The notes beneath the pieces were generated by a model. The model had not been told where the DNA came from. It ran no database searches and saw nothing but the letters and a program-made list of their open reading frames with translations. The translations under genes and the position numbers were made by a program. From a virus (lineage: Duplodnaviria > Heunggongvirae > Uroviricota > Caudoviricetes), in IMG/VR virus record IMGVR_UViG_3300037067_004979, positions 10,733 through 74,732 of that record: 64,000 nucleotides of DNA. The stretch is one strand, 5' to 3'. Every line of letters starts with the position of its first letter. Within the stretch, counting starts at the first letter, position 1. Shown one piece after another: positions 16,622-63,676 of the stretch.

Positions 16622-16694
16622 GTATAGCTCAGTCTGGTAGAGCACTTGGCCTGGGACCAAGGGGTCGTTGGTTCGAATCCAACTACTCAGACCA
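16618..16694 (+). tRNA. tRNA-Pro (anticodon UGG), CCA encoded
   Basis: Cloverleaf read by hand: acceptor CTGAGTA/TACTCAG, D-arm GCTC-AGTCTGGTA-GAGC, anticodon arm CTTGG-CCTGGGA-CCAAG, T-arm GTTGG-TTCGAAT-CCAAC, ACCA 3' end. Confidence 0.75.
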
Positions 16695-29882: not shown

Positions 29883-29957
29883 TGGTACCCCCGGCAGGAG
29901 TTGAACCTGCATTCTCTGTTTAGAAGACAGATGCTCTATCCACTGAGCTACGGAGGC
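29883..29957 (-). tRNA. tRNA-Arg (anticodon UCU), CCA encoded
   Basis: Reverse complement GCCTCCG-TA-GCTC-AGTGGATA-GAGC-A-TCTGT-CTTCTAA-ACAGA-GAAT-GCAGG-TTCAACT-CCTGC-CGGGGGT-A-CCA. Confidence 0.8.
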
Positions 29958-31428: not shown

Positions 31429-31515
31429 TGGCGGAGTCGGTGAGATTTGAACTCACGATGCTGTTAGCATGACCGCTTTCAAGACGGCTCCGATAAACCA
31501 CTCCGGCACGACTCC
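31429..31515 (-). tRNA. tRNA-Ser (anticodon UGA), type II, CCA encoded
   Basis: Reverse complement GGAGTCG...GCCGT-CTTGAAA-GCGGT, long variable arm CATGCTAACAGCATC, T-arm GTGAG-TTCAAAT-CTCAC, CGACTCC-G-CCA. Confidence 0.75.
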
Positions 31516-31590
31516 TGGTAGGGAGTGCAAGATTCAAACTTGCGTCTCCGAGATATAAGCTCGGTATCCTAATCACTGAACTAACTCCCC
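31516..31590 (-). tRNA. candidate tRNA-Ile (anticodon UAU), CCA encoded; weak D-stem
   Basis: Reverse complement GGGGAGT..CCGAG-CTTATAT-CTCGG..GCAAG-TTTGAAT-CTTGC-ACTCCCT-A-CCA; anticodon loop has U33 and A37; D-stem has 2 G-U pairs. Confidence 0.55.
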
Positions 31591-39633: not shown

Positions 39634-41679
39634 TTGAAACTCATTTGGCATAGTACCGCAAATTTTGTGGGGACTGGTTATGGTGTAATAACCAGAGACC
39701 TTGTGCATAGAATAAAGAGTCTTGGTCATGATGTAGATATCTACACAAAGCACTTTCTAGGTGGAAACATAGTTGTTGAGGGTGTTAATAACTATGATGG
39801 TACTCAGATGGATGTAATTAATCATAAACTTGAGAGTGAGGGGTACGACTACATTATTACCTTTGGGGATGCTTGGGTGTATCCAGATAGAGTAAATTAC
39901 TACTTTACAAAAAACAAGTGGGTGTCATCTATGTTTTTGGATGTGCAATTTATGCATCCAAGAATGGTAGAGGCCATGAATCAGTGTCAATACCAGTTAA
40001 CTCTTACAAAGCACGGTAAGAGTGAGTTGGAGAGATCTGGATTTAAGCCACTCTATGCACCACTTGGTGTTGACATGAAGAAATTTAGGCCAGATGAGGA
40101 GCTACGTAATTCATTTAGGAAGAAGTATGGTTGGGAGGATAAATTTGTTTATGGTTTTTTAGGTATCAACTATGGTACAGATAGAAAAAATATCATAAAT
40201 CTAATAAAGGCCTTCCAGGCAATAAACAAGAAGCATCCAGAAACAATCCTATACTTGCATACATCTTTGAATGGTGCACCAACAAGTGGTTTACCAATAG
40301 ACTGGATACTTCAATCATGTGGATTTCCAGTAGATAATACTGGTCCAGTTAGGTTTTGTAACCAGGATGACTACAGGACCTGGGTTATATCTCAAGATGA
40401 ACTTGTTGGTCTCTATAATGCATTTGATGTATTTGCATTCCCAACACAGGGTGAGGGATTTGGTATGCCAATTGTTGAGGCTCAGGCTTGTGGTTGTCCG
40501 ATCATAACAACTGATACCACAAGTGGTGGGGAGCTATTTAAGAGTGGTTGGTTAATTCCAATTGATGATGATGATTATGAGTTCTCCACACATAAGTCAT
40601 GGTTTGCCAAGGTTAGATTAAATAAGATTTATGAATATATGGAGAAATCCTATAATGATGTTAAAGCTGATACTGATAATATTCTAAGAAAAAATGCAAG
40701 AAATAATATACTTGAGTATGATATAGATACAGTATTTAATAAGTATTGGGTACCAATGCTAAACTTCCTTGAAGAGGCCAAGAAAACCCCTGTTAAGTTA
40801 CCAAACTGGACAAAGGAGATATATAGTGTTTGTGGTGGTAGAATATATCCTGACGCAGGGGATTGTGGGGCCTATCACTCATGTGATAGACAGTGTGATA
40901 AATTAAATCTATTTAGATTTCCATGTGAACCTCTTACAGAGGGTAGAAGTTTAATGATGAGAAGTTATCCATTATTCCCAGATAGAGATATGAAGGACAT
41001 GCTTATAGATTCTAGATGTCCAATGTCTAAGTGGGTAGCTGAGAGATTTACAGATGAGGTAAATGCTGCATGGGATAGAGTTATTGAGTACCCATCTCTA
41101 AGAAGATTCTATAAGGATAAGTGTGATGAGGGATTCTTTGATAACTTTGTTACCTCTAAATTGAAAGATAGAAACCTTAATTTTGATTCTGAGTATTCAA
41201 GGATCTTTTCTCTGCCATGGACAACCATATTTCAGGTAAGTGAAGAGGTTATAAATTTCTTTAGTGATTGCAAGCAGGTTCTTGATATTGGTTCTGGGGA
41301 AGGCAAGATAGTTAGAGCTCTTAATGATAGAGGAATAAATACAAAGGGTCTTGAGATAAACAGGGATAGAGTTGATAATAATCTAATTCTTTATGGTAAT
41401 GTTACAGATATACCATATGGGGATAAGACAATAGATGGCATAATTTGTATTGATACACTAGAGCATATCAGTGATCCTATCAAGGCCTTAAGAGAGATAT
41501 TTAGGGTAGCTAGAAAACGTGTTTTAATACAGGTTACATCTCTTAATTCGTGGGCTTTCAGAGAGGATCCTACACACGTTGTAAAGTGGCAGGATTACAG
41601 ATGGTGGAGAGAGATAGCTGAATTTGGTAGGATTATCAAGAAGGACGGCCAGAGGTTCTATGTGGAGGTAGTAGACTAA
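39634..41679 (+). CDS. GT4 glycosyltransferase fused to C-terminal class I SAM methyltransferase
   Basis: TTG start after AAGGAGGT; EGFGMPIVEAQACGCPIITTD (GT4 E-x7-E); Cys-rich middle; VLDIGSGEGKIV...D methyltransferase motif I. Confidence 0.65.
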   Translation: MKLIWHSTANFVGTGYGVITRDLVHRIKSLGHDVDIYTKHFLGGNIVVEGVNNYDGTQMDVINHKLESEGYDYIITFGDAWVYPDRVNYYFTKNKWVSSMFLDVQFMHPRMVEAMNQCQYQLTLTKHGKSELERSGFKPLYAPLGVDMKKFRPDEELRNSFRKKYGWEDKFVYGFLGINYGTDRKNIINLIKAFQAINKKHPETILYLHTSLNGAPTSGLPIDWILQSCGFPVDNTGPVRFCNQDDYRTWVISQDELVGLYNAFDVFAFPTQGEGFGMPIVEAQACGCPIITTDTTSGGELFKSGWLIPIDDDDYEFSTHKSWFAKVRLNKIYEYMEKSYNDVKADTDNILRKNARNNILEYDIDTVFNKYWVPMLNFLEEAKKTPVKLPNWTKEIYSVCGGRIYPDAGDCGAYHSCDRQCDKLNLFRFPCEPLTEGRSLMMRSYPLFPDRDMKDMLIDSRCPMSKWVAERFTDEVNAAWDRVIEYPSLRRFYKDKCDEGFFDNFVTSKLKDRNLNFDSEYSRIFSLPWTTIFQVSEEVINFFSDCKQVLDIGSGEGKIVRALNDRGINTKGLEINRDRVDNNLILYGNVTDIPYGDKTIDGIICIDTLEHISDPIKALREIFRVARKRVLIQVTSLNSWAFREDPTHVVKWQDYRWWREIAEFGRIIKKDGQRFYVEVVD

Positions 41680-42806
41680 TGAAGATAATGTGGTCTTTTA
41701 TATCTCCATTAACACCATTTGGGTATGGTGTTGTTAGTAAGAACATGGTTCCAAGAATGATGGCAGATGGGCATGAGGTCATTGTTTGTGCATCACAGTA
41801 TGTTGGTCATCCAATGCAATATAATGGCATGAATATGATTTCCTTTCTTGATTGGCATGTGGTTAGGAATCTGTGTGATCACTTTGGTGTGGATTATATC
41901 TTTGATCTGTATAACTATAAGTTACCAGAGCAGCCACACTATAGAGACTGGGTAATGTGTGCAGCAATGGATTTTCCCTTTATGTATGATAGATATGCTG
42001 GACACATAAATGAGTTGGCTTCTCATGTGATAGCACCATCTAAACATAACATTAAGGAAATAAAGAGATTTGGGTTTAATCCTACATATGCTCCCTGGGG
42101 AGTTGATACAAAGTTATATAGACAGGATATGGATGCCAGAAAGAGAAAGAGAGATTCACTAAAGATAGATGATGATGTATTCATTGTTGGTACTGTGGGG
42201 GCAAACATATTTGATGATAGAAAAAATCTATTCAATACAATAAGAGCATTTAATAAGTTAGCCTCAGTTCATCCGGATGTGGCTCTATATATACACTGTT
42301 ATTTACATTCATCTTTACCATTGCTTAGATTTATTCAAACCAGTGGTTTTTCAGATAGAATTTACTATCCAGATCAGAGAAAGATAGAGCTGATGTCTAT
42401 ACAGGATGAGGAGATGGTAGATACATATAATGCAATGGATGTATTTGTCTGTGCTTCAAAGGGTGAGTCCTTTTGTTTACCTCTTGTTGAGGCACAATCC
42501 TGTGGTGTACCAGCCATAGTGACTGATACAACTGCCTTACCAGAGATGCTATATGGTGGATGGAAAATACCAGTTGATGAGGACGACTATGAATGGGCAT
42601 ACTTTGGTGGATGGTGGCCTAAGGTAAGGGCACAAAGTATATATGAACAGATGGAAATAGCTTATCAGGAGTGGAAAACTGGGACCATACAGTGTGAATC
42701 AGAAAGAGCTGAGCAGATCAGAACAGAGTTTGATTGGGATGTTGTCTATGATAAGCATTGGAAGCCTCTTTTAAAGGATCTGGAGAGTAAAAAATGCACC
42801 TTATAG
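41679..42806 (+). CDS. GT4 glycosyltransferase
   Basis: GESFCLPLVEAQSCGVPAIVTD; paralog of N-domain of previous. Confidence 0.65.
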   Translation: MKIMWSFISPLTPFGYGVVSKNMVPRMMADGHEVIVCASQYVGHPMQYNGMNMISFLDWHVVRNLCDHFGVDYIFDLYNYKLPEQPHYRDWVMCAAMDFPFMYDRYAGHINELASHVIAPSKHNIKEIKRFGFNPTYAPWGVDTKLYRQDMDARKRKRDSLKIDDDVFIVGTVGANIFDDRKNLFNTIRAFNKLASVHPDVALYIHCYLHSSLPLLRFIQTSGFSDRIYYPDQRKIELMSIQDEEMVDTYNAMDVFVCASKGESFCLPLVEAQSCGVPAIVTDTTALPEMLYGGWKIPVDEDDYEWAYFGGWWPKVRAQSIYEQMEIAYQEWKTGTIQCESERAEQIRTEFDWDVVYDKHWKPLLKDLESKKCTL

Positions 42807-43588
42807 TATTCCCAACTTTTAGATGTGGATTAAACTGTCCTTACTGTAGTTATATACATGATGGTGATAAATTGATCTTTCGTGGTTCTGGCATGGAGTT
42901 CGATCAGAATAGTATAATTAGTGCCAGTGAATGGATAGATATTTTCAATCAACAAAGAGCAGATATAATTGAATTTTCAGGGGGAGGTGAGCCATATAAA
43001 CATCCAGAGATACTTTCCATATTATCAGGGGTTCCTAGTAAATGGGCAATCACATCAAACACTCTTAATTCAAAAATTAATGAAACAGATTTATCTAAGT
43101 GTTGTTTATGGACTGCTAGTTTTCATCCACAGGTGTCAGACAAGGCAAAAATAACATTTTTTAATAATATACACTTTATAGCATCAAAAGTACCAACTTC
43201 TGTTACTCTAGTAGCAACACCACAAAGAATACAAGAGACTCTCCAGTGGGCTAATAGAATTCATAATATGGGTTTTAGAGTAAATATACATCCCTACTAT
43301 GATGATAGGGAGTTTAGTTGGTATGATTATCCAAACGAACTAGCCTTTCTTAAAAGATCAAAATTTGTGGTTTATGATGAAATGATGTTTAAATATAGTG
43401 GATATAAGAGTCCTAGATTATGTGGGGCTGGTAACAATTATAAGATGTACGGACCAGATGGAAAATCATACAGATGTATGTCTGATTTGATGTTTAAAAG
43501 GGATTCAACAGAAGCTGTTTTTTGTGATAATTTTTGTCCTTTCCCTTGTGATTGGAGTCAAGTGATTAAAGATGATAGAAACATTTAG
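42794..43588 (+). CDS. radical SAM enzyme with Cys-rich C-terminal region
   Basis: FRCGLNCPYCSY (CxxxCxxC), SGGGEP motif; C-terminal C...C...C-x3-C-x3-C. Confidence 0.65.
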   Translation: MHLIVFPTFRCGLNCPYCSYIHDGDKLIFRGSGMEFDQNSIISASEWIDIFNQQRADIIEFSGGGEPYKHPEILSILSGVPSKWAITSNTLNSKINETDLSKCCLWTASFHPQVSDKAKITFFNNIHFIASKVPTSVTLVATPQRIQETLQWANRIHNMGFRVNIHPYYDDREFSWYDYPNELAFLKRSKFVVYDEMMFKYSGYKSPRLCGAGNNYKMYGPDGKSYRCMSDLMFKRDSTEAVFCDNFCPFPCDWSQVIKDDRNI

Positions 43589-44270
43589 ATTTAGAGGTAA
43601 GTCAAATAGTGGTGTTTTCTTTTTTAAGGGTAAACCCTATCAATATTACAATCATACATATAATGCTGTTGGTTTAAATGAAAGAACTATAGAAATACCA
43701 ATAATTAATGGCTACTTTGAGAAATACAGAGGAAAAGATGTATTGGAAATAGGACACACTCTTGGACACTATCTAACTAAATATGATCATGATATAGTTG
43801 ATAAGTGTGAAGAAGCTCCTGGGGTAACCAATGTTGATATAGTAGATTTTGAGCCCACTAAAAAATACGATTTAATATTTTCTATATCTACTATGGAGCA
43901 TGTTGGTAATGATGAGGCTTTTGAGGAAAGCCCAGATAAAGATAAGGTTAAAGTGGCCTTTGATAGGTGTGTATCTTGGTTAAAGCCAGATGGAGCATTT
44001 ATCTGTACTTTCCCACTAGGGTTTAACTATCACCTTGATACTAGAGTTATGAATGGTGAAATAAAGTTTGATGAGTTGTATTGTTTTGGTAGGGAGAGTT
44101 CTACTATCAATCATTGGATATTTACCTCCTTTGAAACAGCTTATAAATCAGATCTTAAGGTAATGAGGACTTCTATTAAAGATATAAATGGTGTTTTACA
44201 GCCATTTACAATATGTTTCTTTGTAGCTATAGGTATAATTTATGGAGGAAATAATGACAGAGAAGAATAA
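43572..44270 (+). CDS. putative SAM-dependent methyltransferase-fold protein
   Basis: DVLEIGHTLGHY, DLIFSISTMEHV, LKPDGAFI resemble MTase motifs I-III; tentative. Confidence 0.4.
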   Translation: MIETFRFRGKSNSGVFFFKGKPYQYYNHTYNAVGLNERTIEIPIINGYFEKYRGKDVLEIGHTLGHYLTKYDHDIVDKCEEAPGVTNVDIVDFEPTKKYDLIFSISTMEHVGNDEAFEESPDKDKVKVAFDRCVSWLKPDGAFICTFPLGFNYHLDTRVMNGEIKFDELYCFGRESSTINHWIFTSFETAYKSDLKVMRTSIKDINGVLQPFTICFFVAIGIIYGGNNDREE

Positions 44271-44913
44271 ACATATTCCATGGAATAGAGGTCTTACTAA
44301 GTATTCAGACAACAGAATTATGAAAGTTTCTATTGAAATGTCCGGGAAAATTAGATCAAAGGAACACAGTTTAAATATTTCTCTATCTAAAATTGGTGTA
44401 AAAAATATAAAAAAATCTATACAAATGAAAGATAATTCTAGTGGTTCTAAGAATTTATTCTATGGTCATCATCATACACAAGAAACTAAAAACAAGATTA
44501 GTATTGCAAATAAAGGTAGAAGATACCCAGGCAGAAAATTACCCTCTCTTATGGGAAATAATAACCCATCTAAACGTCCGGAAGTAAGATTATTGATAAG
44601 TAAGAGAGTTAGTGAAACTCATTGGAATACTTCCTTAGAGAAAAATCCTAACTGGAGAGGAGGTATATCTTTTTTACCTTATAAACCTTATAGACATCTA
44701 AAAAATCAAATTATTCATAGAGATAAATCTGATAGATGTCTTTTATGCGGAGAGGACACTAAGGTCCGTGTTATTCATCATATAGATTATATTAAGGTAA
44801 ATAATAATTTAAATAATCTATGTATATTATGTAATAGTTGTAATTCTAAAGTTAATAAAAATAGGTCTTATTGGGAAAACTATTTTGTTGGGAGGATTAA
44901 AGATGGAGTATAA
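44242..44913 (+). CDS. HNH homing endonuclease (AP2-like IPWNRGLTK)
   Basis: IPWNRGLTKYSD; CLLCGED...HHIDY...N...CNSCN HNH motif; AT-rich insertion in glycan cluster. Confidence 0.6.
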   Translation: MEEIMTEKNKHIPWNRGLTKYSDNRIMKVSIEMSGKIRSKEHSLNISLSKIGVKNIKKSIQMKDNSSGSKNLFYGHHHTQETKNKISIANKGRRYPGRKLPSLMGNNNPSKRPEVRLLISKRVSETHWNTSLEKNPNWRGGISFLPYKPYRHLKNQIIHRDKSDRCLLCGEDTKVRVIHHIDYIKVNNNLNNLCILCNSCNSKVNKNRSYWENYFVGRIKDGV

Positions 44914-45910
44914 ATTTACTTCAGAAGTACAAATGAACTATGAACACAGTAAGAAAAAATTAATTTCTTGTATATCTGGGGTTAATGGACAAGATGGTTC
45001 GTTTTTGGCTGAAATATTGTTAGAAAAAGGGTACGAAGTACATGGGATACTGCGTAGAAGTAGTGTTTCTAATACAAAAAATATAGATCATATAAAGAAT
45101 AATATATACTTACATGTGGGTGATGTAAATGATTCTAATTTTATTAATACTATACTCTATGATATACAACCAAATGAGTTTTATCATTTAGCTGCTCAGA
45201 GTCATGTCGGGTTAAGCTTTGATATCCCCATTTATACAGCTGAAACTGTTGCTATAGGTACATTAAATGTTCTCGAATCTGTAAGAAAATATTCCCCATT
45301 CACTAAAATATATTATGCGGGGACTTCTGAGTTATATGGCTCAGCTAAACCTCCTCAGAATGAAAATACTTTAATGCATCCCAATAGTCCATATTCTATA
45401 TCAAAGTTATTTGGTTTTGAGATGTCTAGATTATATAGAAAATCATATAATTTATTTATATCATGTGGCATACTTTTCAACCACGAATCTGAACGCAGAG
45501 GTGATGAATTTGTAACACAAAAAATTGTTAAGGGGTTGATAAACTGTAAATTAGGCAAACAAAAAAAGTTATACTTGGGCAATCTAGATGCTAAGAGAGA
45601 TTGGGGTTATGCAAGAGATTACTGTGAAGCTATGTGGATGATGCTTCAGCATGGAGAAGCAGATGATTTTGTTATAGGGACTGGAGAATCTTATTCAATA
45701 AGAGATTTTTTAAATGTTACTGGAGACTATGTTAAGATAGATTGGAAGGACTATGTTGAAATTGATTCTAATTTATTCAGACCCACTGAAACTGAGTACC
45801 TATTGGCAGCTCCCGGTAAGGCCTTCAGTAAGTTGGGTTGGAGACCTAAGGTTAGATTTGAACAATTGGTAAGAATTATGGTTGATGCACAGATAAATTT
45901 GGAGGTATAA
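44903..45910 (+). CDS. gmd: GDP-mannose 4,6-dehydratase
   Basis: ISGVNGQDGSFLAEILLEKGYEVHGILRRSS (Rossmann GxxGxxG), YSISK, catalytic region; start moved to ATG 44903 after GGAGGATTAAAG. Confidence 0.75.
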   Translation: MEYKFTSEVQMNYEHSKKKLISCISGVNGQDGSFLAEILLEKGYEVHGILRRSSVSNTKNIDHIKNNIYLHVGDVNDSNFINTILYDIQPNEFYHLAAQSHVGLSFDIPIYTAETVAIGTLNVLESVRKYSPFTKIYYAGTSELYGSAKPPQNENTLMHPNSPYSISKLFGFEMSRLYRKSYNLFISCGILFNHESERRGDEFVTQKIVKGLINCKLGKQKKLYLGNLDAKRDWGYARDYCEAMWMMLQHGEADDFVIGTGESYSIRDFLNVTGDYVKIDWKDYVEIDSNLFRPTETEYLLAAPGKAFSKLGWRPKVRFEQLVRIMVDAQINLEV

Positions 45911-45911
45911 T

Positions 45912-46631
45912 ATGCCAGGTTTTGGTTGGGTTAAGGATAAATTTGATATCAGAGATTTTAATGTCAGGAGTTTAATTACTCCAGAGAAAAAGCAAGCTCT
46001 GCTACCAAATCACTTCGTTGTCTATGATGGTACAATCATATATGATCAGGGTCAGACATCAAAGTGTGTTGCATACTCTGCTAGTGGTGTTAAGACAGAT
46101 CAGGAATTTATACAGTATGGTAAGCAATATCGATTTGATGCAAACTGGCTCTATTCTGAGTGTAAGAAGATAGATGGCATACCAAATGAAAATGGCACGT
46201 ATCCCAGAATAGCCTGTAAAATACTTCAGGAAAAGGGTGATAAACTAGATACATCAAATCTGTGCTTTCTTAAGAAAATGGTATCTGGTCCAGATAAAAA
46301 GTGGGGCATAGATTCCTACTATAGGATAGATATATCAAATACAGATGAGGACATCAAGCAAATTCTGTTTTCCTATGGTAGTTTTATAGCTGCATCATCA
46401 TGGTATAGCAATTGGATGGATAAGTTTACTGAGTTTCCAGAACCAAATGGCATTGTTGATGGTGGCCATGCCTATCGAATAATTGGCTGGAATGAAAAGG
46501 GCTGGATAATTGCTAACTCATGGGGTACCATTCTATGGGGTGACGGTGGTAAGGCAACAATGTCATATGATATTTTTAGAAGAAGGGTATTGTCTGAAGG
46601 CGACTGCTGGAAGCTAGTCGATTCAAAATAA
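45912..46631 (+). CDS. papain-like (C1 family) cysteine peptidase
   Basis: QGQTSKCVAYSA (Gln...Cys), GGHAYRIIGW (His), NSWG (Asn-Ser-Trp). Confidence 0.6.
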   Translation: MPGFGWVKDKFDIRDFNVRSLITPEKKQALLPNHFVVYDGTIIYDQGQTSKCVAYSASGVKTDQEFIQYGKQYRFDANWLYSECKKIDGIPNENGTYPRIACKILQEKGDKLDTSNLCFLKKMVSGPDKKWGIDSYYRIDISNTDEDIKQILFSYGSFIAASSWYSNWMDKFTEFPEPNGIVDGGHAYRIIGWNEKGWIIANSWGTILWGDGGKATMSYDIFRRRVLSEGDCWKLVDSK

Positions 46632-46640
46632 GGAGGAAAA

Positions 46641-47414
46641 ATGAAGGATAATTTAGATCAAATCATCGTAGCACTGTGTTCACTTGCTGCGGCAATAATT
46701 CTGTTTGTTTGGCCAGATAAGACACAGCTTGCAGGGTTGATAACCAGTACAGTTGGTCCTACTCTGTCAATTGTTGTTGGTATAATCTATACCTGGATTG
46801 CTGGTAGTCAGAAGATTGAGGTTGCTAAGCAGAGGACTGCTGAATTGCAGTACAAGTTAGCAATGCTTAGTCCGAAGGGAACTGGTGCAAAACCATCTGC
46901 AAGTACAATCCCAACATATACCTATACCAGTAAGGATGTTGAGATTGTTGAGAGTGAGGCAAAGGCAGATATTCAAGGTAACTCTCTAACTGTAGATAAG
47001 CTAAATTTTGCAGAGTATAACTATACTCACATGTCTAACTATGACTTGAGGCCTGTTGCAAGGGAGTTAAGGGTAGACCTAGCTAAGGAATTTCTTGATA
47101 ATGAGGTCTCACTGTTGAACGATGCCTGGGTGTTTGCTACAAACATTCAGACTCCACCAACTCCAGAGCAGGCGGCTAGTAAGTCAACAAGCATGTACTA
47201 CTTCAAGAAGGAGTGGGAAAAGGCAAATGGTCTTAAGTGTGGAGACAATGTGTATACCACAATGTCTACGCTGCTTGGGTACTACAATGGAACATACTCA
47301 GCTCTTTCTGGTGTAGAATCACTCATAGGCAAGACTGTTGATTACAGTGTGTTTGGGGGTGGTATGTTTAGTCCGACCTCACTGGGTTGGGAAGCTGCAA
47401 ACCTAGTTGTATAG
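46641..47414 (+). CDS. membrane-anchored hypothetical protein
   Basis: RBS AGGAGGAAAA; N-terminal TM helix. Confidence 0.45.
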   Translation: MKDNLDQIIVALCSLAAAIILFVWPDKTQLAGLITSTVGPTLSIVVGIIYTWIAGSQKIEVAKQRTAELQYKLAMLSPKGTGAKPSASTIPTYTYTSKDVEIVESEAKADIQGNSLTVDKLNFAEYNYTHMSNYDLRPVARELRVDLAKEFLDNEVSLLNDAWVFATNIQTPPTPEQAASKSTSMYYFKKEWEKANGLKCGDNVYTTMSTLLGYYNGTYSALSGVESLIGKTVDYSVFGGGMFSPTSLGWEAANLVV

Positions 47415-52587: not shown

Positions 52588-55500
52588 CATTGAAAAGTTA
52601 AGACAGATAAAAAAAGACAAGCGAGACGCTGTATTTAAAAAACCCAATGTAGTAGGCTTGTCTGTTGGTTATAAGGAAATACAGGGTATCCTAACTGATA
52701 CTCCGTGTATAAAGGTATTTGTCTCTAAAAAGATAGATAAGAAGAAAATCAAGAAGAGTGATCTAATACCAGAGTCAATTGATGGTGAGATGACTGATGT
52801 TATAGAGAGCATGCCAGAAGCTCTGGATGTTAGAACATCTAAGCAAAGACCTGCCTTTGGTGGTATTTCCATAGGACATCCAAGTATAACGGCTGGTACA
52901 CTTGGATGTTTGATTAATACTGGTGGCTCAAATTACATCATCTCAAATAATCACGTGTTAGCTGCTGTAAATACAGCAACCATTGGTGATTACATATATC
53001 AACCAGGTGTTTATGATGGAGGTACTGCCTCTGATATAATAGGCCGTTTAACAAAATTTGTACCAATAACTCTCTATGAAAATATAGTAGAGGATCCAAC
53101 TGTAAACTATGTTGATGGAGCATTGTGTTTACCAACAACTCAATCACTTGTAAATAACACAATCTATGAGGTAGGTACTTACTCAGGATTAGTTGTAGAG
53201 CCATACCTTGGACAGACAGTTACAAAATCTGGTAGAACCACAGGTGTTTCTGTTGGCACAGTCTCATCCATAGATTTTGAGGGCTGGGTTTCATACAGTA
53301 CACATGGTTATGGATATTTTGTTGATCAAATACAGGTTAGTGCTACAGTAGCTGGTGGTGATTCTGGTAGTGCTGTATTAGATAGTTCAATGGGGTTTGT
53401 TGGGCTTCTGTTTGCTGGTGGTGGTGGATATTATGTTGCAAGTAAATCTGGTCAGGTGTTTACTAGACTAATATATGGTAACTTTTCACAGTCTTCTATG
53501 GATTCAATCATAGGTGGTTTAGTACAAACCAATACAATGGATGCCTTTATAGGTACATATAACATGACTGTCATAACTCAGTATATGTCTGGGTTTAACA
53601 TAGATACATATACAGCATTGCGGTCAATTGTAAGAGATTCCAGTGGTACTCTTTGGTATGCAGATAAATTAGGTAGAGGGGCTGTTGGTGGAACCTGGGG
53701 TATTGTTAGAGTTTTTAACTCTGTTGATAATGGTGTTACCTGGTCTTATGAGAATTTAGCAGTGCCGGTTTTTCCATCTGGGGAGGGTATTGGTAATTTT
53801 TTCTATAATCCACACATAATCACCAATGGCCTAGATATATATGTTGTGGCATATGGATGGATTTTGCCTCACTATAATACATACCCAGTTGATTATGGTA
53901 TTTATGGATTTTATAGGAATCACACCACTGGTGTATGGAGTGGTCCTGAAGCTGTAGCATTAGCATCAGAAATAGGTATAAGCACATTTGGTAGTTATAC
54001 CATTGAACCAGCTGCAATATATGATGAGTTTGATAATATACATTTTGTCTGGTCAAATCTAGGCACCATACCATTTTATAGAAAAAAGAGTTCATCTGGG
54101 GTATTTTCTGCTATAGAAATACCAAGTGTTACTTACAAGGTACCAGGGGCTTTCTTTAATTCAGTGGCTCCATTAATCTTTATGGATAAAATTACAAGAG
54201 ATATATATCTAGTTATGCCTGGTTGTATCTATCCAAATTCAACTCCCTTTGTAATTTATTGTTTTGTTAAGGATTACATTACAAATCAATGGTCCACAGA
54301 GGTAGTGGATAGCTATCTAACAAATATATCTTTCTGGTCTTCTTGTATGGATAGTGATAACACCATACATGTTGTATATGGTGGTTCAAAGGGTAATCCA
54401 TATCTAGATATATACTATACAAAGAGAACTACATCAGCTGGGTGGTCTACACCCATAAAATTAGTTACAAATACAACGGGAGACGTATTTGATGCAGATA
54501 GTATATCATCTGATATAAATAACAATCTGTATGTTTTATATAATTCAAGATCTGGTGAATTACCAGACACCACAAAACCAACATTACACTTGATTAGATG
54601 TGTTTCTAATGTATGGCAAAGTCCAGAGATTATCATAGATAGTTCTGTTGGTGGTCATAGAGGTAGACTAATACATCAAAATACTCCAAATAATTATAAT
54701 TTGACAAAGAGTGGATATTATGGTAGTGCAGAAGATAGGATTGATTCTGGTACTATGACAGGATATTCAATTATGGCTATACCAGATAGTGCTATATTTA
54801 CTTCACAAACTACTAATTATACCAAGATAGTTGCAGCACCATTGATATTTTTAAATAGAATGGTTAGAAAAATTGCTGGTAAGAGAATAGAGAACATTAG
54901 ATTAATATTAACTAGAGTCTTGTCAAAACACACAAAGAAAAATGCAGAATTCCTTGTTGGTGTGTTGTCTTTTTATAATTTATTAACTAAGAAAGATAAA
55001 AATTCCCCAGAAGAATTCATAAGAAATTTTATAATCTCTATGAAGGTAATCCTTAATGATATATCTATAAATGAGATTGCTAGTTTCATTGTTGGTGTTA
55101 TAGTTAATCAAGTGAAGAAGAGGACTTCTGGTAAATTGATTACCAAACAGATATCACTATCAAAGAATATACAGAGTAGCCATGGTTTTATAAGATCTAT
55201 TCTATTACAATTAAAGACAAAGAGTTTAGAGACTAAGTTAATGGCTATATCAAAAACCATTCTTACCAGAATATACATGACAAACACTAGATTAATAAAG
55301 TTTATATCTAAATTAATTAGGATATCCATATATACACGTAATGATCTGGATTTTGATAATAAAAATATAAAGAGGTTTAGAGTAACTGGTTTTATTAGTT
55401 CAAAGATAAATAGATCAGTTAATTTGAGTAGTATCTATAAACCACCTATAATATTCAGTTCTGTTAAGAGATTGAATTGGCCTACAAGTGTTCTGATTAC

Positions 55501-55609
55501 ATTGTTATTTACCAGTGGTTCTAGACTTATTTATCTATATATAAAAGGCAGATTTATAAGTGTGTCTATATATCTTAACTCTAGCATGGATAGATTTTCT
55601 GCTATTTAG
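52580..55609 (+). CDS. 1009-aa multidomain fibre protein: trypsin-like serine protease + BNR/Asp-box domain + IRYN-like basic tail
   Basis: NNHVLAA (His), DGALCLP (Asp), GDSGSAVL (Ser) protease triad; SVDNGVTWSY Asp-box; last ~250 aa of IRYN composition. Confidence 0.55.
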   Translation: MDNIEKLRQIKKDKRDAVFKKPNVVGLSVGYKEIQGILTDTPCIKVFVSKKIDKKKIKKSDLIPESIDGEMTDVIESMPEALDVRTSKQRPAFGGISIGHPSITAGTLGCLINTGGSNYIISNNHVLAAVNTATIGDYIYQPGVYDGGTASDIIGRLTKFVPITLYENIVEDPTVNYVDGALCLPTTQSLVNNTIYEVGTYSGLVVEPYLGQTVTKSGRTTGVSVGTVSSIDFEGWVSYSTHGYGYFVDQIQVSATVAGGDSGSAVLDSSMGFVGLLFAGGGGYYVASKSGQVFTRLIYGNFSQSSMDSIIGGLVQTNTMDAFIGTYNMTVITQYMSGFNIDTYTALRSIVRDSSGTLWYADKLGRGAVGGTWGIVRVFNSVDNGVTWSYENLAVPVFPSGEGIGNFFYNPHIITNGLDIYVVAYGWILPHYNTYPVDYGIYGFYRNHTTGVWSGPEAVALASEIGISTFGSYTIEPAAIYDEFDNIHFVWSNLGTIPFYRKKSSSGVFSAIEIPSVTYKVPGAFFNSVAPLIFMDKITRDIYLVMPGCIYPNSTPFVIYCFVKDYITNQWSTEVVDSYLTNISFWSSCMDSDNTIHVVYGGSKGNPYLDIYYTKRTTSAGWSTPIKLVTNTTGDVFDADSISSDINNNLYVLYNSRSGELPDTTKPTLHLIRCVSNVWQSPEIIIDSSVGGHRGRLIHQNTPNNYNLTKSGYYGSAEDRIDSGTMTGYSIMAIPDSAIFTSQTTNYTKIVAAPLIFLNRMVRKIAGKRIENIRLILTRVLSKHTKKNAEFLVGVLSFYNLLTKKDKNSPEEFIRNFIISMKVILNDISINEIASFIVGVIVNQVKKRTSGKLITKQISLSKNIQSSHGFIRSILLQLKTKSLETKLMAISKTILTRIYMTNTRLIKFISKLIRISIYTRNDLDFDNKNIKRFRVTGFISSKINRSVNLSSIYKPPIIFSSVKRLNWPTSVLITLLFTSGSRLIYLYIKGRFISVSIYLNSSMDRFSAI

Positions 55610-57148: not shown

Positions 57149-58246
57149 ATGCCTTTTCCTTATGACTGGCCAATAATATGGGACCATGAAGAGAGTGGTT
57201 CTTTTGAGATAGATTTTAATTCTGTAAATTCAAAGAGATCTATACTAAGTAGAATCAAAAATGCCTATCTGTATTATCCTTCTTACATAGATAGATTGAT
57301 TAATAGTAGTATAATAAAATCCTCTAATTTCAAAGAAACAGCCTTATATTTTAATGATAATTGGTATATAAGAAGCTTATCTAAATATCTGTCATTAGAA
57401 ACAAAGACACTAAAAGATATATTTCTACATTTTGTAACATCGTTAAATATTAGACCTGCTTTAAATAAAACAGCAAATTATGTAAAAGCTTCTGCAATAC
57501 AAATTTCTAATGGTATAGAAAATGTAATATCCTTAAGTAAGTCATTTATTTCTGAATTTAATTTTAGTGGCTTGTTAAACCGTAATATTAATATAAATAA
57601 TGTAATTATATCTACTGTAGGCTACTTTACTATGTATATAGAAGAGAGCTTTTTGCACAATGGCTTATATACATATATGAGAAATATCATATCTACTGTT
57701 AAAGTAGAACACAATATAGGTAGATTGTTGTTTTACTATAGGCTATATACCATAAATATAATAAGTGCCTTTCTTTTAATCAAGAACATAACCAAATCGT
57801 TTAAAGCATATAAGTTATTAAGTGGCATTAAAAATTCGATATCTTGGTTCTCTAGAAACATGTTATCTAATATTGTAACAGAGATAACACTAGGAAGGTC
57901 ATATAGAAAAATATCAGTTTATAGACTTGTATTACAAAATAGTATATCCAAGAAAATTGGGCAAGGCAAGAAACTTAGTGTTCAATTCTACCTGCTTAGC
58001 TTGAGAGAAGACTTAGCTGGATATTGGGAACACCCTGTTGTGTATATGATTACAAGATTAACTGTATTAAGAAATATAGTGGTTAATCAACTTTATAGTA
58101 TTAGAGTTAGTGTTAGTCCTAGAGAGTATAAGTATGCTAATATATATAAGAGATTCAGAATATATCTATTGGTGTTATCTAGTGTTATTTCTGGTATTAC
58201 AGATAAATACCTTAAGAGAATATTGAGTGCTGTATTTATTAGATAG
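57149..58246 (+). CDS. IRYN family member 3
   Basis: 365 aa of same composition (ILRNSYK-rich), AT-rich. Confidence 0.45.
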   Translation: MPFPYDWPIIWDHEESGSFEIDFNSVNSKRSILSRIKNAYLYYPSYIDRLINSSIIKSSNFKETALYFNDNWYIRSLSKYLSLETKTLKDIFLHFVTSLNIRPALNKTANYVKASAIQISNGIENVISLSKSFISEFNFSGLLNRNININNVIISTVGYFTMYIEESFLHNGLYTYMRNIISTVKVEHNIGRLLFYYRLYTINIISAFLLIKNITKSFKAYKLLSGIKNSISWFSRNMLSNIVTEITLGRSYRKISVYRLVLQNSISKKIGQGKKLSVQFYLLSLREDLAGYWEHPVVYMITRLTVLRNIVVNQLYSIRVSVSPREYKYANIYKRFRIYLLVLSSVISGITDKYLKRILSAVFIR

Positions 58247-60505: not shown

Positions 60506-60958
60506 ATGCCATATACTGCAGAATTTGATCCCGTATCCACAATGAGAGATCTATTAGAGGATAACTGGGTTCCCTATAATGAGTGCCCAGCTCCATCTAT
60601 TGTTGTTGGTAATGAGGCAGAGGAACCATATGCAAGAATTGATATAAATCTCGGTGATTACATTGTTATAAGATCTGGTGGGGGAGAGATATTTAAGGGA
60701 CGTGGTAATCTTAAATACTTTGATAAGGAGTATCCAATAACACTAGATGTCTGGACTAAGTATAATCGTCAGAGATTAAGAGATATATATAGAGAGATAA
60801 AGGCAATATGCATGGCTAATAAGTTTAGCTTTACTGGGTTTCAACTTATTCTCCCAGTTTCCTATACAGAGATGGTTAATGAGCAGTTGAACATATGGAG
60901 AGCAGAGGTACAGATTAAGGTTACCTCAGCAGGAGTGTGTGTGGATACAATATCATGA
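60506..60958 (+). CDS. hypothetical protein (tail-completion-like position)
   Basis: 150 aa. Confidence 0.4.
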   Translation: MPYTAEFDPVSTMRDLLEDNWVPYNECPAPSIVVGNEAEEPYARIDINLGDYIVIRSGGGEIFKGRGNLKYFDKEYPITLDVWTKYNRQRLRDIYREIKAICMANKFSFTGFQLILPVSYTEMVNEQLNIWRAEVQIKVTSAGVCVDTIS

Positions 60959-61100
60959 TGGAACAGAAGATATGTCCTCATTGTAATACCTCTAACCCAA
61001 TTGATATAATATACTGTGTATCCTGTGGTGCTAATCTTAAGTATCTAAGGGTGATGGTTGAGGCTGAAAAAATTCTTAAGAAGAAGAGGGGTGATAGATA
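60955..61100 (+). CDS. zinc-ribbon micro-protein (48 aa), not in ORF track
   Basis: MMEQKICPHCNTSNPIDIIYCVSCGANLKYL; ATGA/TAATG overlaps both neighbours. Confidence 0.4.
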
Positions 61101-62147
61101 ATGGGCTATGTGATTCGTGGAGAGAATTTTAAGGTAACCTATGCAGTGGAATCAGCGTATGGCACAGATCCTGGTACTGCAAGTCTGGTAAATTCATTTG
61201 GTGTGGTTCAAACTGCTAACATAACTGATCCACAGATTGATTACATGCCATTCTGGGGTATGAGTACTGGACAGTATAGAAACTGGTGGATTACCTACAA
61301 GGGTAAGATATCACTGGGTATGTCAATTCCAGATATAGTTCTTCTTAATGGTGCCCCCCTGTTTCTTCCACTAGGGTCTTGTACAACCACAGGAACAAAT
61401 CCATATACTCACACAATGGCAGAAACATATGATCTGCCAACAATAACAACTCATGTTACGTATACTGATACCAATGATGCTGACGTACTCATGAGAAGAT
61501 TCTGTGGGGGTAAGGTTGGTAGAGCTACATACTCTGCCACAGAGGGTGGATTCCTGACAATGGCTTTAGAGGATATACAGTTTAAGAATCTTTATCATAA
61601 TAAATCTGGACATACTTGGTATAGTGCAAATGTTGCAGATGTAACACCATCATATCCTTGCACAGAACCATACCTATTTTCATATGGGTCTCTTACACTA
61701 GATGGATCAGAGTTTGCTCGTGTCAAGGAATGGAGATTAAGTGTTGATAATGCTCTAGAACCAAAATACTATGTTACCAATGATGCAATTAGTCAATTAC
61801 CATATGAGCATAGAGAGGGTAGAAGGCAATATCAGATGTCAGTAACATGTGATATAGAGGATGCCGCCTTATATCAGGAACTAATTGACCAGGGTACATA
61901 CTCAAGTGTATATAAGGGATTTGTAGCAACAATGGTATTTACCAGGGGATCAAATGATACAATCACATTCACCACACCATCAAGTGGTTCAGTTGCTTGT
62001 GGTGGTGGTAATATGGGATGTTTAATAAAGACTGCACCTCACTCCATAGTGTCTGATCCTATAGTTCCAGTATCATTAGATATAATTTGTAGAAGCTTAA
62101 GCATTGTTTCTGTTGATGCAGTATCTACCTATAGTGGTAGTGTTTAA
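61101..62147 (+). CDS. putative major tail protein
   Basis: 348 aa immediately upstream of G/GT chaperone pair. Confidence 0.45.
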   Translation: MGYVIRGENFKVTYAVESAYGTDPGTASLVNSFGVVQTANITDPQIDYMPFWGMSTGQYRNWWITYKGKISLGMSIPDIVLLNGAPLFLPLGSCTTTGTNPYTHTMAETYDLPTITTHVTYTDTNDADVLMRRFCGGKVGRATYSATEGGFLTMALEDIQFKNLYHNKSGHTWYSANVADVTPSYPCTEPYLFSYGSLTLDGSEFARVKEWRLSVDNALEPKYYVTNDAISQLPYEHREGRRQYQMSVTCDIEDAALYQELIDQGTYSSVYKGFVATMVFTRGSNDTITFTTPSSGSVACGGGNMGCLIKTAPHSIVSDPIVPVSLDIICRSLSIVSVDAVSTYSGSV

Positions 62148-62163
62148 TAATTAGGAGGTAAAG

Positions 62164-62505
62164 ATGGATATAAATGATATCTTCGTAAAAGAGGATGTTC
62201 AAGAGGTGTGGCTGGATTATCGAGAGCAGAAGATAGGACCAATTAAGGTTAGATCTCTTTCCTGGAGTCGCAAGAATCAGATACTAACTAACTGTTTTAC
62301 ATATGGTCAGGATGGTCAAATGAAGTTTAATTTTGATAAGTATATGAAAGATATGCTTTCAGAGATAATCATTGAAGCTCCATGGGGAAAAACAGATCAG
62401 ATATTTCTAAGTAGGATCAAACCAGACTTTGGAACAACACTAGAGAAACTTGTACCGAAGGCGTTTGAGGAGATAGCTAATGCGGATTTTTTCGCAAGAG
62501 AGTAA
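62164..62505 (+). CDS. tail assembly chaperone (G-like)
   Basis: RBS TAGGAGGTAAAG; 113 aa; slippery T_TTT_TTC 4 codons before stop. Confidence 0.55.
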   Translation: MDINDIFVKEDVQEVWLDYREQKIGPIKVRSLSWSRKNQILTNCFTYGQDGQMKFNFDKYMKDMLSEIIIEAPWGKTDQIFLSRIKPDFGTTLEKLVPKAFEEIANADFFARE

Positions 62506-62714
62506 GAAGGCTACTGTCTGGTGGAATACAAAATCCAGACATGTTTGATGGACTATTATCTCGTAAGTTAGTTGATGTTTATCTAATGAAGAGAGGCATA
62601 TCTTATAATAGCATAAATCAAATGTGTGAGAGAGATGTAATGGAGTATTACTTCATATTACAGGAAATGGACAAAATAGAGATGGAATCCATGGAAAAGA
62701 ATATCAGGAGATAA
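62164..62714 (+). CDS. tail assembly chaperone -1 frameshift fusion (GT-like)
   Basis: -1 slip at 62487-62493 opens a 74-codon extension ending TAA 62712-62714, 2 nt before next gene. Confidence 0.45.
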
Positions 62715-62716
62715 GT

Positions 62717-63676
62717 ATGGCAGAAGAAACCTGGAAGGTAATTTTAGAGGAAGGTACTGCTGGGACTGGTTCTACCACAGGTTCAGCTGGGGGAACATCA
62801 GGTGGTAAATCACCAGTAACACAGAGCAAGACCTGGGGGGATATAGGTAAGATAGCCGGTGCTGTGGCAGGATTTGCTTCTGCTATTGGATTTATCATAC
62901 AAGCATTGAGAAGAAGTAAGATTCTCTCTACCTTTACAGATAATCTATTAACCATAATGGGTGCTGTTGTTGATATGCTATTGATTCCACTCATACCAGT
63001 ATTAGTTCCATTCCTTCAACTAGCAGTGAAGTTACTGCCAATAGCAAAGAAAATTGGTGAAATGGTGGCTCCAGTACTTGAACAATTAGTCAAGGCTATA
63101 GGGGTTTTACTAGATACTGGTGATCTTGGCCCAATAGTTCAATGGTTTGATGATCTTTTTAATAAATATTTGATACCATGGATTAGGGATTTCTTTACTA
63201 ATGTTATGCCTAAGGTAATGGAGTTTTTAAAGGCTGTTATACCAAAGGTTGTGTCATTTTTATCTGAGATAATACCAGTAATAATTAAGACCTTGACTGA
63301 GTTGTGGCCAATGATAGTTGGGGCTCTTGTTGGTTTATGGAATTTAATAGCACCATATGTAAACGACTTTTTAATTAACATAGTTTTGCCGACCATAAAA
63401 ACTCTAATAGATTCAATATTATCTTATACCATAGAATTTATCAAAAATATGGCAGATTGGTTACCAAAGGTAATCGGTGTGGCCATAAATAATAATCTAC
63501 CAGATGTACTTAAAATACCTGGTTTTTGGAAATCACAAGAAATGCCTGATTTTCAAATGCCAACATTCAAGATAGATCTTCAGATAAATGGCCAGAAAGT
63601 AAAGAGCACAACATCTACATCTGGTGGTACATCTCTGAGTTGGGAAGATTCATTTTTTAGTTCAGCTTTAGGATAG
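62717..63676 (+). CDS. tape-measure-like protein (short)
   Basis: Gly/Ser/Thr N-terminus then long hydrophobic helical region; downstream of chaperones. Confidence 0.4.
   Translation: MAEETWKVILEEGTAGTGSTTGSAGGTSGGKSPVTQSKTWGDIGKIAGAVAGFASAIGFIIQALRRSKILSTFTDNLLTIMGAVVDMLLIPLIPVLVPFLQLAVKLLPIAKKIGEMVAPVLEQLVKAIGVLLDTGDLGPIVQWFDDLFNKYLIPWIRDFFTNVMPKVMEFLKAVIPKVVSFLSEIIPVIIKTLTELWPMIVGALVGLWNLIAPYVNDFLINIVLPTIKTLIDSILSYTIEFIKNMADWLPKVIGVAINNNLPDVLKIPGFWKSQEMPDFQMPTFKIDLQINGQKVKSTTSTSGGTSLSWEDSFFSSALG

What the first reader, a model, noticed from the sequence alone, without database searches (positions are those of the whole stretch)
62164..62714. Programmed -1 frameshift (U_UUU_UUC) in the tail assembly chaperone, missed by the ORF track
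Four codons before the stop of ORF 62164-62505 lies GAT TTT TTC (heptamer T TTT TTC at 62487-62493). Slipping to GGA TTT TTT CGC opens a 74-codon extension that ends at TAA 62712-62714, exactly 2 nt before the next gene. This matches the conserved G/GT arrangement between major tail and tape-measure genes. It supports calling 61101-62147 the major tail protein and 62717-63676 a tape-measure-like protein.
Basis: seen in the sequence. Interest (0 to 1): 0.6.

Follow-up and report, generated by a model that had tools for sequence, protein, structure and literature searches.

The report
Frameshifted tail assembly chaperone gene
A tailed virus, probably one that infects archaea, carries the textbook arrangement in which some ribosomes slip back one base on TTTTTTC near the end of a small tail-chaperone gene to make a longer second protein; the call is correct and well supported, but this kind of feature is already known.

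Summary
ORF 62164-62505 (113 aa) ends ...GAT TTT TTC GCA AGA GAG TAA. The heptamer T_TTT_TTC (62487-62493) lies in X_XXY_YYZ phase inside a 22-nt overlap with a -1 frame. That frame is open only from 62481 to TAA 62712-62714, 2 nt before the next gene.

The flanking genes are a tail tube protein (Pfam Phage_tube_2) and a short tape-measure-like protein. The modelled fold of the 113-aa protein matches tail assembly chaperones (HK97, HHTV-2).

I collected 72 related loci, 62 of them distinct. Every one has an in-phase slippery heptamer in the same overlap: A_AAA_AAA in 53, T_TTT_TTC in 8 and T_TTT_TTA in 1. The codon that supplies the first base encodes seven different amino acids but always ends in the run base.

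The -1 extension is 63-90 codons and is conserved as protein. It has no conserved start codon and ends at the start of the tape-measure gene.

The fused product aligns colinearly across the junction with the annotated frameshifted chaperone of haloarchaeal virus HVTV-2. The window has no downstream stimulatory structure, although some relatives have a covarying hairpin.

Verdict: a real lambda G/GT-type programmed -1 frameshift, a new member of a known kind, and unannotated in all relatives fetched.

The parts
61101..62147 (+). Tail tube (major tail) protein gene, 348 aa
   Evidence: Pfam PF18906 Phage_tube_2, E 1.2e-14, above the cut-off. tblastn hits genes annotated 'tail tube' in HHTV-2, HCTV-2, HVTV-2 and HCTV-5. 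Relatives have the same gene in the same position.
62153..62158 (+). Shine-Dalgarno-like AGGAGG, 5 nt upstream of the G start codon
   Evidence: Read directly from the sequence. It shows that genes here carry a ribosome-binding motif, which ATG 62541 lacks.
62164..62505 (+). G: tail assembly chaperone ORF read in the 0 frame, 113 aa, stop TAA 62503-62505
62467..62472 (+). GAGGAG (Glu-Glu codons), SD-like, 14 nt upstream of the heptamer; a candidate upstream stimulator, unproven
   Evidence: Sequence. The same GAGGAG is present in L001, L002, L003 and L009. An SD-core 5-mer lies 9-20 nt upstream of the heptamer in 22 of 62 relatives, against 5.6% of background windows. The result is confounded by the conserved KAFEE peptide.
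62487..62493 (+). Slippery heptamer T_TTT_TTC (U_UUU_UUC), the site of the -1 shift
   Evidence: It lies in phase within the 22-nt 0/-1 overlap. It is conserved as T_TTT_TTC, T_TTT_TTA or A_AAA_AAA in 62 of 62 distinct relatives.
62493..62714 (+). T: the -1 frame extension, 73 codons plus TAA 62712-62714. It is joined to G residues 1-110 to give GT of 183 aa (junction ...ANADFF|RKRVRR...)
   Evidence: Translations. Codon-position mismatch pattern 3>1>2 in this frame. The other two frames carry on average 8.6 and 6.3 stops across relatives. There is no conserved start codon. The first T residue is Arg in 59 of 62. The fused protein aligns across the junction with HVTV-2 gp130 and with PHROG tail assembly chaperone profiles.
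62717..63676 (+). Tape-measure-like protein gene, 319 aa, starting 2 nt after the T stop
   Evidence: PHROG tape-measure families, best E 1.3e-8. It sits in the same position as the tape measure genes of HHTV-2 and HVTV-2.

Best explanation
Gene 62164-62505 encodes a lambda gpG-type tail assembly chaperone. Most ribosomes read it in frame and terminate at TAA 62503, giving G (113 aa). A minority slip back one nucleotide, with tRNA-Phe in the P and A sites on U_UUU_UUC (62487-62493). They re-pair on UUU UUU and continue in the -1 frame with CGC (Arg) to TAA 62712-62714. This gives GT (183 aa, junction ...ANADFF-RKRVRR...).

By analogy with lambda, the G part of both proteins coats the tape-measure protein encoded immediately downstream. 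The rarer T domain recruits the tail tube protein encoded immediately upstream. The frameshift rate thus fixes the G:GT ratio needed for tail assembly.

Shown here: the sequence anatomy, the identities of the neighbouring genes, the chaperone fold, family-wide conservation of an in-phase slippery heptamer, and conservation of the -1 frame as protein. Inferred: that the shift is ribosomal, how efficient it is, and what the proteins bind.
For: (1) Anatomy. The heptamer is in X_XXY_YYZ phase inside a 22-nt overlap, and the -1 frame opens only 6 nt before it.
(2) Context. The order tube, G, T, tape measure is confirmed and is the same in nine fetched relatives.
(3) Conservation. All 62 distinct G+T sequences from 72 loci have an in-phase heptamer in the overlap: A_AAA_AAA in 53, T_TTT_TTC in 8 and T_TTT_TTA in 1. 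The codon supplying X1 encodes I, V, L, A, T, D or N, yet its third base always equals the run base. Selection is therefore on the nucleotide, not the amino acid, and the site has switched between two different slippery sequences.
(4) T is coding in the -1 frame. It is open for 63-90 codons in 62 of 62, while the other frames carry about 6-9 stops. Mismatch by codon position is 0.56/0.43/0.64. The motif R-x3-[FL]-[LI]-[RK]-G begins at the first post-shift codon.
(5) There is no conserved start codon in T (first ATG at index 1 to 68). In the window there is no ATG, GTG or TTG between 62481 and ATG 62541, and that ATG has no SD.
(6) None of the 38 protein homologues is an in-frame G-T fusion.
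(7) The window's fused GT aligns in one colinear HSP across the junction with HVTV-2 gp130 (E 2e-9). That protein is annotated 'putative programmed translational -1 frameshift', and its overlap holds the heptamer G_GGA_AAG. PHROG tail assembly chaperone profiles match residues 4-159 of the fusion better than they match G alone.
(8) The G fold matches tail assembly chaperones.
(9) Established knowledge: G-T -1 frameshifting is conserved in long-tailed dsDNA phages and is predicted in the haloarchaeal siphoviruses HVTV-1 and HCTV-1, -2 and -5 (review PMC5009743).
Against: There is no protein-level evidence; nothing here shows that GT is made or at what rate.

The window has no downstream stimulatory structure. 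MFE z is -0.18 and -0.14, the best helix in the canonical position is only 4 bp, and RNAalifold finds no consensus. Lambda G/GT also works without one (my recollection of the lambda literature; not checked in a paper here).

Every heptamer in the family is built on a homopolymer run (T6 or A7), so slippage by RNA polymerase would give the same product and is not excluded.

No Pfam family matches G or T, and PDB sequence searches find nothing.
Confidence: 0.85

Rival explanations
1. Transcriptional slippage. RNA polymerase stutters on the T6 run (A7 in most relatives) and adds one extra base to a fraction of mRNAs. Ordinary translation of those mRNAs then yields GT.
For: All 62 distinct family members use a homopolymer-based site: exactly A7 in 52 of 53 (one A8) and T6 in 9 of 9. 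None uses a mixed heptamer such as G_GGA_AAG, which HVTV-2 has. The window lacks an RNA structure of the kind that usually accompanies ribosomal -1 shifts. A7 and T7 runs are known slippage and indel hazards (PMC4066793).
Against: The runs are short compared with the longer runs that I recall characterised transcriptional slippage sites using (about 9 bases; from memory, not checked in a paper here). They are held at the minimal heptamer length and never extended. The run is always in exact X_XXY_YYZ phase, including after the T-to-A switch, and phase is irrelevant to the polymerase. About a third of relatives have a 10-13 bp hairpin starting 4-8 nt after the heptamer, with compensatory changes in one subclade. 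That is the classic geometry of a ribosomal stimulator.
Confidence: 0.08
2. Two separate genes. T is an independent small protein (57 aa) initiated at ATG 62541, with no recoding.
For: An ATG-started ORF 62541-62714 exists. Gene callers predicted small ORFs of 41-73 aa in this gap in five relatives.
Against: ATG 62541 has no SD, whereas the neighbouring genes do. The position of the first start codon in T is scattered from codon 1 to 68 across relatives, and one relative has no ATG at all. The best conserved T motif (Arg at post-shift codon 1 in 59 of 62, then [FL]-[LI]-[RK]-G) lies upstream of most of those starts. In four relatives no gene was called in the gap. This rival also leaves the invariant in-phase heptamer unexplained.
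Confidence: 0.03
3. Artefact or decay. A homopolymer-length sequencing or assembly error, or a real frameshift mutation, has split a single G-T gene.
For: The break lies in a T6 homopolymer, a typical place for indel errors.
Against: 62 distinct sequences from independent assemblies (JGI, ENA, Logan, NCBI, IMG/VR) all need the same -1 shift at the same place. All have a 0-frame stop, only 3-6 nt after the heptamer in 50 of 62. No in-frame fusion exists among the 38 homologues.
Confidence: 0.01

Closest known systems
Bacteriophage lambda gpG/gpGT tail assembly chaperones (programmed -1 frameshift at G_GGA_AAG) and the conserved G-T frameshift of long-tailed dsDNA phages (Levin 1993; Xu, Hendrix and Duda 2004, 2013, 2014, as summarised in PMC5009743)
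   Different: There is no detectable sequence similarity to lambda G/T or to any Pfam tail assembly chaperone family. The heptamer is U_UUU_UUC rather than G_GGA_AAG. The host is probably archaeal. The product ratio and binding partners are untested.
Tail assembly chaperone of haloarchaeal siphoviruses: HVTV-2 gp130/gp131 (MZ334523.1, annotated 'putative programmed translational -1 frameshift'), and the equivalent genes of HVTV-1, HCTV-1, -2, -5 and HHTV-2
   Same: The proteins are homologous. The fused products align colinearly across the junction (23% identity over 157 aa, E 2e-9). The fold matches the HHTV-2 chaperone (TM 0.73). The gene order tube, chaperone, tape measure is the same. The tube and capsid proteins of the window have their only annotated relatives in these viruses and in a Methanofastidiosa virus.
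   Different: HVTV-2 uses G_GGA_AAG and a longer T of about 125 codons. The window has 36% G+C and belongs to an uncultured lineage that uses only T6- or A7-based heptamers. No host is known.
E. coli dnaX -1 frameshift (A_AAA_AAG with an upstream SD-like element and a downstream hairpin)
   Same: It has a homopolymer-type heptamer. There is a possible SD-like GAGGAG 14 nt upstream. Some relatives have a hairpin 4-8 nt downstream of the heptamer.
   Different: The gene and function are unrelated. In dnaX the shifted product is the shorter one. In the window the hairpin is absent, and the SD-like element is confounded with conserved Glu-Glu codons.

Membership tests
Lambda-type G/GT tail assembly chaperone with programmed -1 frameshift | The gene lies between the major tail (tube) gene and the tape-measure gene | tested here: met
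   Upstream is Phage_tube_2 with tail tube tblastn hits. Downstream are tape-measure PHROG hits. Nine relatives have the same order.
Lambda-type G/GT tail assembly chaperone with programmed -1 frameshift | A second ORF overlaps the 3' end of the first in the -1 frame and has no start signal of its own | tested here: met
   The -1 frame is open from 62481 to 62714. There is no start codon before ATG 62541, and that ATG has no SD. No start is conserved in 62 relatives.
Lambda-type G/GT tail assembly chaperone with programmed -1 frameshift | A canonical X_XXY_YYZ slippery heptamer in 0-frame phase inside the overlap | tested here: met
   T_TTT_TTC at 62487-62493. About 0.04 such heptamers are expected by chance in the overlap.
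Lambda-type G/GT tail assembly chaperone with programmed -1 frameshift | Relatives conserve the shift site and the extension as coding sequence | tested here: met
   62 of 62 distinct sequences have an in-phase heptamer. The third base of the preceding codon is invariant across seven amino acids. T shows a coding substitution pattern and conserved motifs.
Lambda-type G/GT tail assembly chaperone with programmed -1 frameshift | G has the tail assembly chaperone fold | tested here: met
Lambda-type G/GT tail assembly chaperone with programmed -1 frameshift | Two proteins, G and GT, are made in a fixed ratio (about 30:1 in lambda). Both are needed for tail assembly and both are absent from virions | not testable with these tools
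   This needs proteomics or genetics on a cultured virus-host pair.
Lambda-type G/GT tail assembly chaperone with programmed -1 frameshift | G binds the tape-measure protein and the T domain binds the major tail protein | not testable with these tools
   Inferred only from gene order and homology.
Pfam tail assembly chaperone families (sequence membership) | A match above the gathering threshold to a Pfam tail assembly chaperone model | tested here: not met
   No Pfam family matches G or T at E up to 0.1 apart from one spurious sub-threshold hit. Membership is supported only at PHROG level (phrog_35486 at 1.8e-5 for the fusion, best family member 1.9e-10) and at fold level.
-1 frameshift sites with a 3' stimulatory RNA structure (dnaX, IS elements, retroviral type) | A stable stem-loop or pseudoknot starting 5-9 nt after the heptamer | tested here: not met
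   Window: MFE z -0.18 and -0.14, best helix 4 bp, no consensus structure, no Rfam match. The feature is met in some relatives, including a 12-bp helix with 98.7% of cells paired and 3 compensatory pairs.

The most novel reading that the evidence does not exclude
This uncultured family appears to be archaeal. It uses only homopolymer-based sites (A_AAA_AAA or U_UUU_UUC/A), and a hairpin is present in some lineages and absent in others. The most novel reading not excluded is that the recoding works differently from the bacterial model. It could be slippage by the archaeal RNA polymerase on A7 or T6. Or it could be a ribosomal shift with archaeal-specific site rules, for example two tRNA-Lys species favouring A_AAA_AAA over A_AAA_AAG. 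In that case the family would be the first large comparative data set for -1 recoding in Archaea.
Probability: 0.1. Interest if true: 0.55.

Novelty: new member of a known kind. Interest (0 to 1): 0.3.

Why it matters
The main practical value is correct annotation. The 183-aa GT product is missed by ORF callers here and in every relative fetched, where the gap is left empty or filled with spurious 41-73-aa ORFs.

The frameshift also anchors the tail module (tube, G/GT, tape measure) of an uncultured virus of about 106 kb and 36% G+C. That virus's structural genes resemble only those of archaeal tailed viruses.

Experimental evidence for -1 frameshifting in Archaea is thin. The 2016 review calls the haloarchaeal virus cases 'very likely' (PMC5009743). 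A family of 62 distinct sequences with an invariant in-phase heptamer, two interchangeable slippery sequences and a lineage-specific covarying hairpin therefore offers ready-made constructs. They could be used to test shift-site rules in archaeal translation systems.

None of this overturns current understanding.

Tried and rejected
- A viral-contig scan with the single G protein found nothing. It worked only with the alignment.
- P0032 could not be traced to a contig.
- RNAalifold on the downstream 100 nt gave no consensus in either the T6 clade or the A7 clade. A hairpin was found only with a direct helix search and a subclade alignment, and it is absent from the window.
- The Rfam scan of 62100-62900 gave only a spurious sub-threshold lncRNA hit.
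- PDB sequence searches with the G and GT profiles found nothing meaningful.
- Pfam has no model for G or T.
- A search for natural in-frame G-T fusions, which would have proved the junction, found none among 38 homologues.
- +1 frameshifting is rejected because the +1 frame closes at 62546.
- Host assignment from MAG labels is rejected as unreliable. Two MAG contigs of about 109.5-109.9 kb that share the same heptamer context and chaperone C-terminus are binned as a CPR bacterium and as a Woesearchaeote.
- The upstream GAGGAG as a stimulator is left open. It is enriched relative to background, but it coincides with conserved Glu-Glu codons, and GAG is 54% of Glu codons.
- Liu et al. 2021 (PMC8651126) does not discuss the chaperone frameshift in its text. 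Only the GenBank annotation does.

Full report
**The observation**

ORF 62164-62505 (113 aa) ends GCG GAT TTT TTC GCA AGA GAG TAA. T TTT TTC at 62487-62493 is a canonical X_XXY_YYZ heptamer in 0-frame phase.

The -1 frame is closed by TAA 62478-62480. It opens at 62481, only 6 nt before the heptamer, and runs to TAA 62712-62714, 2 nt before ATG 62717. The post-shift extension is 73 sense codons, or 74 with the stop. The +1 frame closes at 62546.

In-phase heptamers of this form occur at 0.0067 per codon in the window's + strand ORFs. About 0.04 are therefore expected in the overlap, and T_TTT_TTC in phase occurs only twice among 15,767 codons. TTTTTTC occurs six times on the + strand of the 64-kb window.

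**The genes around it**

- The upstream gene 61101-62147 is a tail tube protein. It matches Pfam Phage_tube_2 at 1.2e-14. Its tblastn hits fall almost entirely on archaeal tailed viruses, and genes annotated 'tail tube' lie under the match in HHTV-2, HCTV-2, HVTV-2 and HCTV-5.
- The downstream gene 62717-63676 (319 aa) matches fourteen PHROG families, eleven of them annotated 'tail length tape measure protein', best E 1.3e-8.
- The 113-aa protein has weak PHROG 'tail assembly chaperone' hits (2e-4) and no Pfam hit.

**Relatives**

The protein database holds 38 homologues at 46-71% identity. All are 109-150 aa, and all end shortly after a DFF, NFF, DFL or [IV]KK motif. None is an in-frame G-T fusion.

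I fetched DNA for nine of them. A scan with the alignment added 59 IMG/VR loci and 3 MAG contigs. Together with the window this gives 72 loci and 62 distinct G+T nucleotide sequences. The survey shows:

- Every one has an in-phase slippery heptamer inside the 0/-1 overlap: A_AAA_AAA in 53, T_TTT_TTC in 8 and T_TTT_TTA in 1.
- The codon that contributes the first heptamer base encodes Ile, Val, Leu, Ala, Thr, Asp or Asn, but its third base always equals the run base. Selection therefore acts on the nucleotide.
- The family has exchanged one slippery sequence for another at the same position and in the same phase.
- The 0-frame stop follows 3-6 nt after the heptamer in 50 of 62.
- The first -1 codon is Arg in 59 of 62.
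- The extension is 63-90 codons and ends within about 14 nt of the next long gene in nearly all.

**T is a protein made only by recoding**

In the -1 frame the extension is open in 62 of 62. The other two frames carry on average 8.6 and 6.3 stops. Pairwise mismatches by codon position are 0.44/0.34/0.59 in the window's clade and 0.56/0.43/0.64 family-wide, which is the coding pattern.

A motif R-x3-[FL]-[LI]-[RK]-G begins at the first post-shift codon. Further conserved positions follow, including E, LL and G[IL].

The first possible start codon in T lies anywhere from codon 1 to 62, and the first ATG anywhere from 1 to 68. In the window there is no ATG, GTG or TTG between 62481 and ATG 62541. 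That ATG has no Shine-Dalgarno motif, whereas the G and tape-measure genes have AGGAGG and AGGAG.

**Link to known cases**

HVTV-2 (MZ334523.1) is a haloarchaeal siphovirus. Its gene between tail tube and tape measure is annotated 'tail assembly chaperone, putative programmed translational -1 frameshift', and its overlap holds the heptamer G_GGA_AAG.

The window's fused GT aligns with the HVTV-2 fused product in one colinear HSP that crosses the junction (23% identity over 157 aa, E 2e-9). PHROG tail assembly chaperone profiles match the fusion over residues 4-159 with better scores than they give G alone. Nine of 15 family members match, best 1.9e-10.

The review PMC5009743 states that low-level G-T -1 frameshifting is widely conserved in long-tailed dsDNA phages. 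It adds that it 'also appears to be utilized' by HVTV-1 and HCTV-1, -2 and -5. The feature is therefore a new member of a known kind.

**Stimulatory elements**

The window has none that I can detect downstream:

- MFE z-scores are -0.18 and -0.14.
- The best ungapped helix starting 2-10 nt after the heptamer is 4 bp.
- RNAalifold finds no consensus.
- There is no Rfam match.

This is compatible with a low-efficiency, lambda-like site.

About a third of relatives do have a 10-13 bp helix starting 4-8 nt after the heptamer (21 of 62 at p<=0.05 against codon shuffles). In one subclade of 13 distinct sequences a 12-bp helix is paired in 98.7% of cells and has compensatory changes at three pairs.

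An SD-like GAGGAG lies 14 nt upstream in the window and in several relatives. SD-core 5-mers are enriched 9-20 nt upstream (22 of 62 against a 5.6% background). This coincides with the conserved Glu-Glu codons of the KAFEE motif, so it remains only a lead.

**Rival explanations**

- Transcriptional slippage on T6 or A7 would give the same protein, and sequence alone cannot exclude it. Three things favour the ribosome: the runs are held at the minimal length, the phase is strictly kept across the T-to-A switch, and many relatives have a hairpin at the ribosomal spacing.
- Independent initiation of T is contradicted by the lack of a conserved start and by the conserved residues upstream of any start.
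- Sequencing error or pseudogenisation is contradicted by 62 independent sequences that share the arrangement and by the absence of any fused form.

**What kind of virus**

The tube and major capsid proteins find annotated relatives almost exclusively in archaeal tailed viruses: haloarchaeal Druskaviridae and Saparoviridae, and a Methanofastidiosa virus. The window has about 36% G+C, so it is not a haloarchaeal virus.

MAG labels for the related contigs (Woesearchaeota, Nitrosopelagicus, Daviesbacteria) are inconsistent. Two contigs of about 109.5-109.9 kb that share the same heptamer context and chaperone C-terminus are binned in two different phyla. An archaeal host is a reasonable inference but is not shown.

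**Verdict**

It is a lambda G/GT-type programmed -1 frameshift in the tail assembly chaperone of an uncultured, probably archaeal, tailed virus. It is well supported computationally and unannotated in all relatives fetched, but it is of a known kind.

- Confidence in recoding at this site: about 0.93.
- Confidence in a ribosomal mechanism specifically: about 0.85.
- Interest: 0.3.

Noticed in passing
L031:3115-3161 and the equivalent positions in L038-L044, L048, L052-L054, L064, L068, L071: In one subclade of relatives a 12-bp helix starts 4 nt after the A_AAA_AAA heptamer. It is paired in 98.7% of cells, with compensatory changes at three pairs (UA/CG, CG/UA, AU/UG). Other lineages (L001/L002, L008, L012, L029, L033, L046) have unrelated 10-12 bp hairpins at the same spacing. 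The window has none. The stimulator therefore seems to be gained and lost lineage by lineage.
   Followed up: partly
window 39634-47414: An unbroken run of + strand ORFs. The first two are a 681-aa glycosyltransferase/methyltransferase fusion and a 375-aa glycosyltransferase. The other ORFs in the run were not scanned. A glycosylation module would be unusually large for a virus.
   Followed up: no
window 13059-14651: A 530-aa protein with an N-terminal region matching head-maturation-protease PHROGs and an intein splicing domain over residues 196-507. This may be an intein inside a virion-maturation gene.
   Followed up: no
window 4340-8549: A 1006-aa protein with a C-terminal DRAT-type ADP-ribosyltransferase domain, followed by a 398-aa protein with an anthrax lethal-factor-like (ATLF) domain. 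Liu et al. 2021 list an ADP-ribosyltransferase in HVTV-1 and HCTV-5.
   Followed up: no
window 16618-16694, 29883-29957, 31429-31590: Four tRNA genes: Pro(TGG), Arg(TCT), Ser(TGA) and Ile(TAT). The last two are adjacent on the minus strand.
   Followed up: no
whole window: TTTTTTC is strongly strand-biased, with 6 copies on the + (coding) strand against 23 on the - strand. The total of 29 compares with 14 expected from shuffles. This could reflect avoidance of oligo-T in the sense strand or simply Lys-rich coding.
   Followed up: no
window 60937-61101: A 54-aa zinc-ribbon ORF (CPHC...CVSC) lies just upstream of the tail tube gene. Relatives L001 and L002 have a 47-48-aa ORF at the same position.
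   Followed up: no
window 54700-55609 and 57149-58246: The C-terminal 300 aa or so of the 1009-aa trypsin-like ORF, and the whole 365-aa ORF 57149-58246, have an odd composition rich in I, S, N, K, L and R, and no family hits. They may be miscalled frames or very divergent fibre-like proteins.
   Followed up: no
L012 (JACOXG010000010.1) and L013 (CAYSNL010000001.1): Two MAG contigs of about 109.5-109.9 kb share the same heptamer context and the same chaperone C-terminus. One is binned as Candidatus Daviesbacteria (a CPR bacterium) and the other as Woesearchaeota. They are probably whole viral genomes swept into MAG bins, so the labels cannot be used for host assignment.
   Followed up: partly
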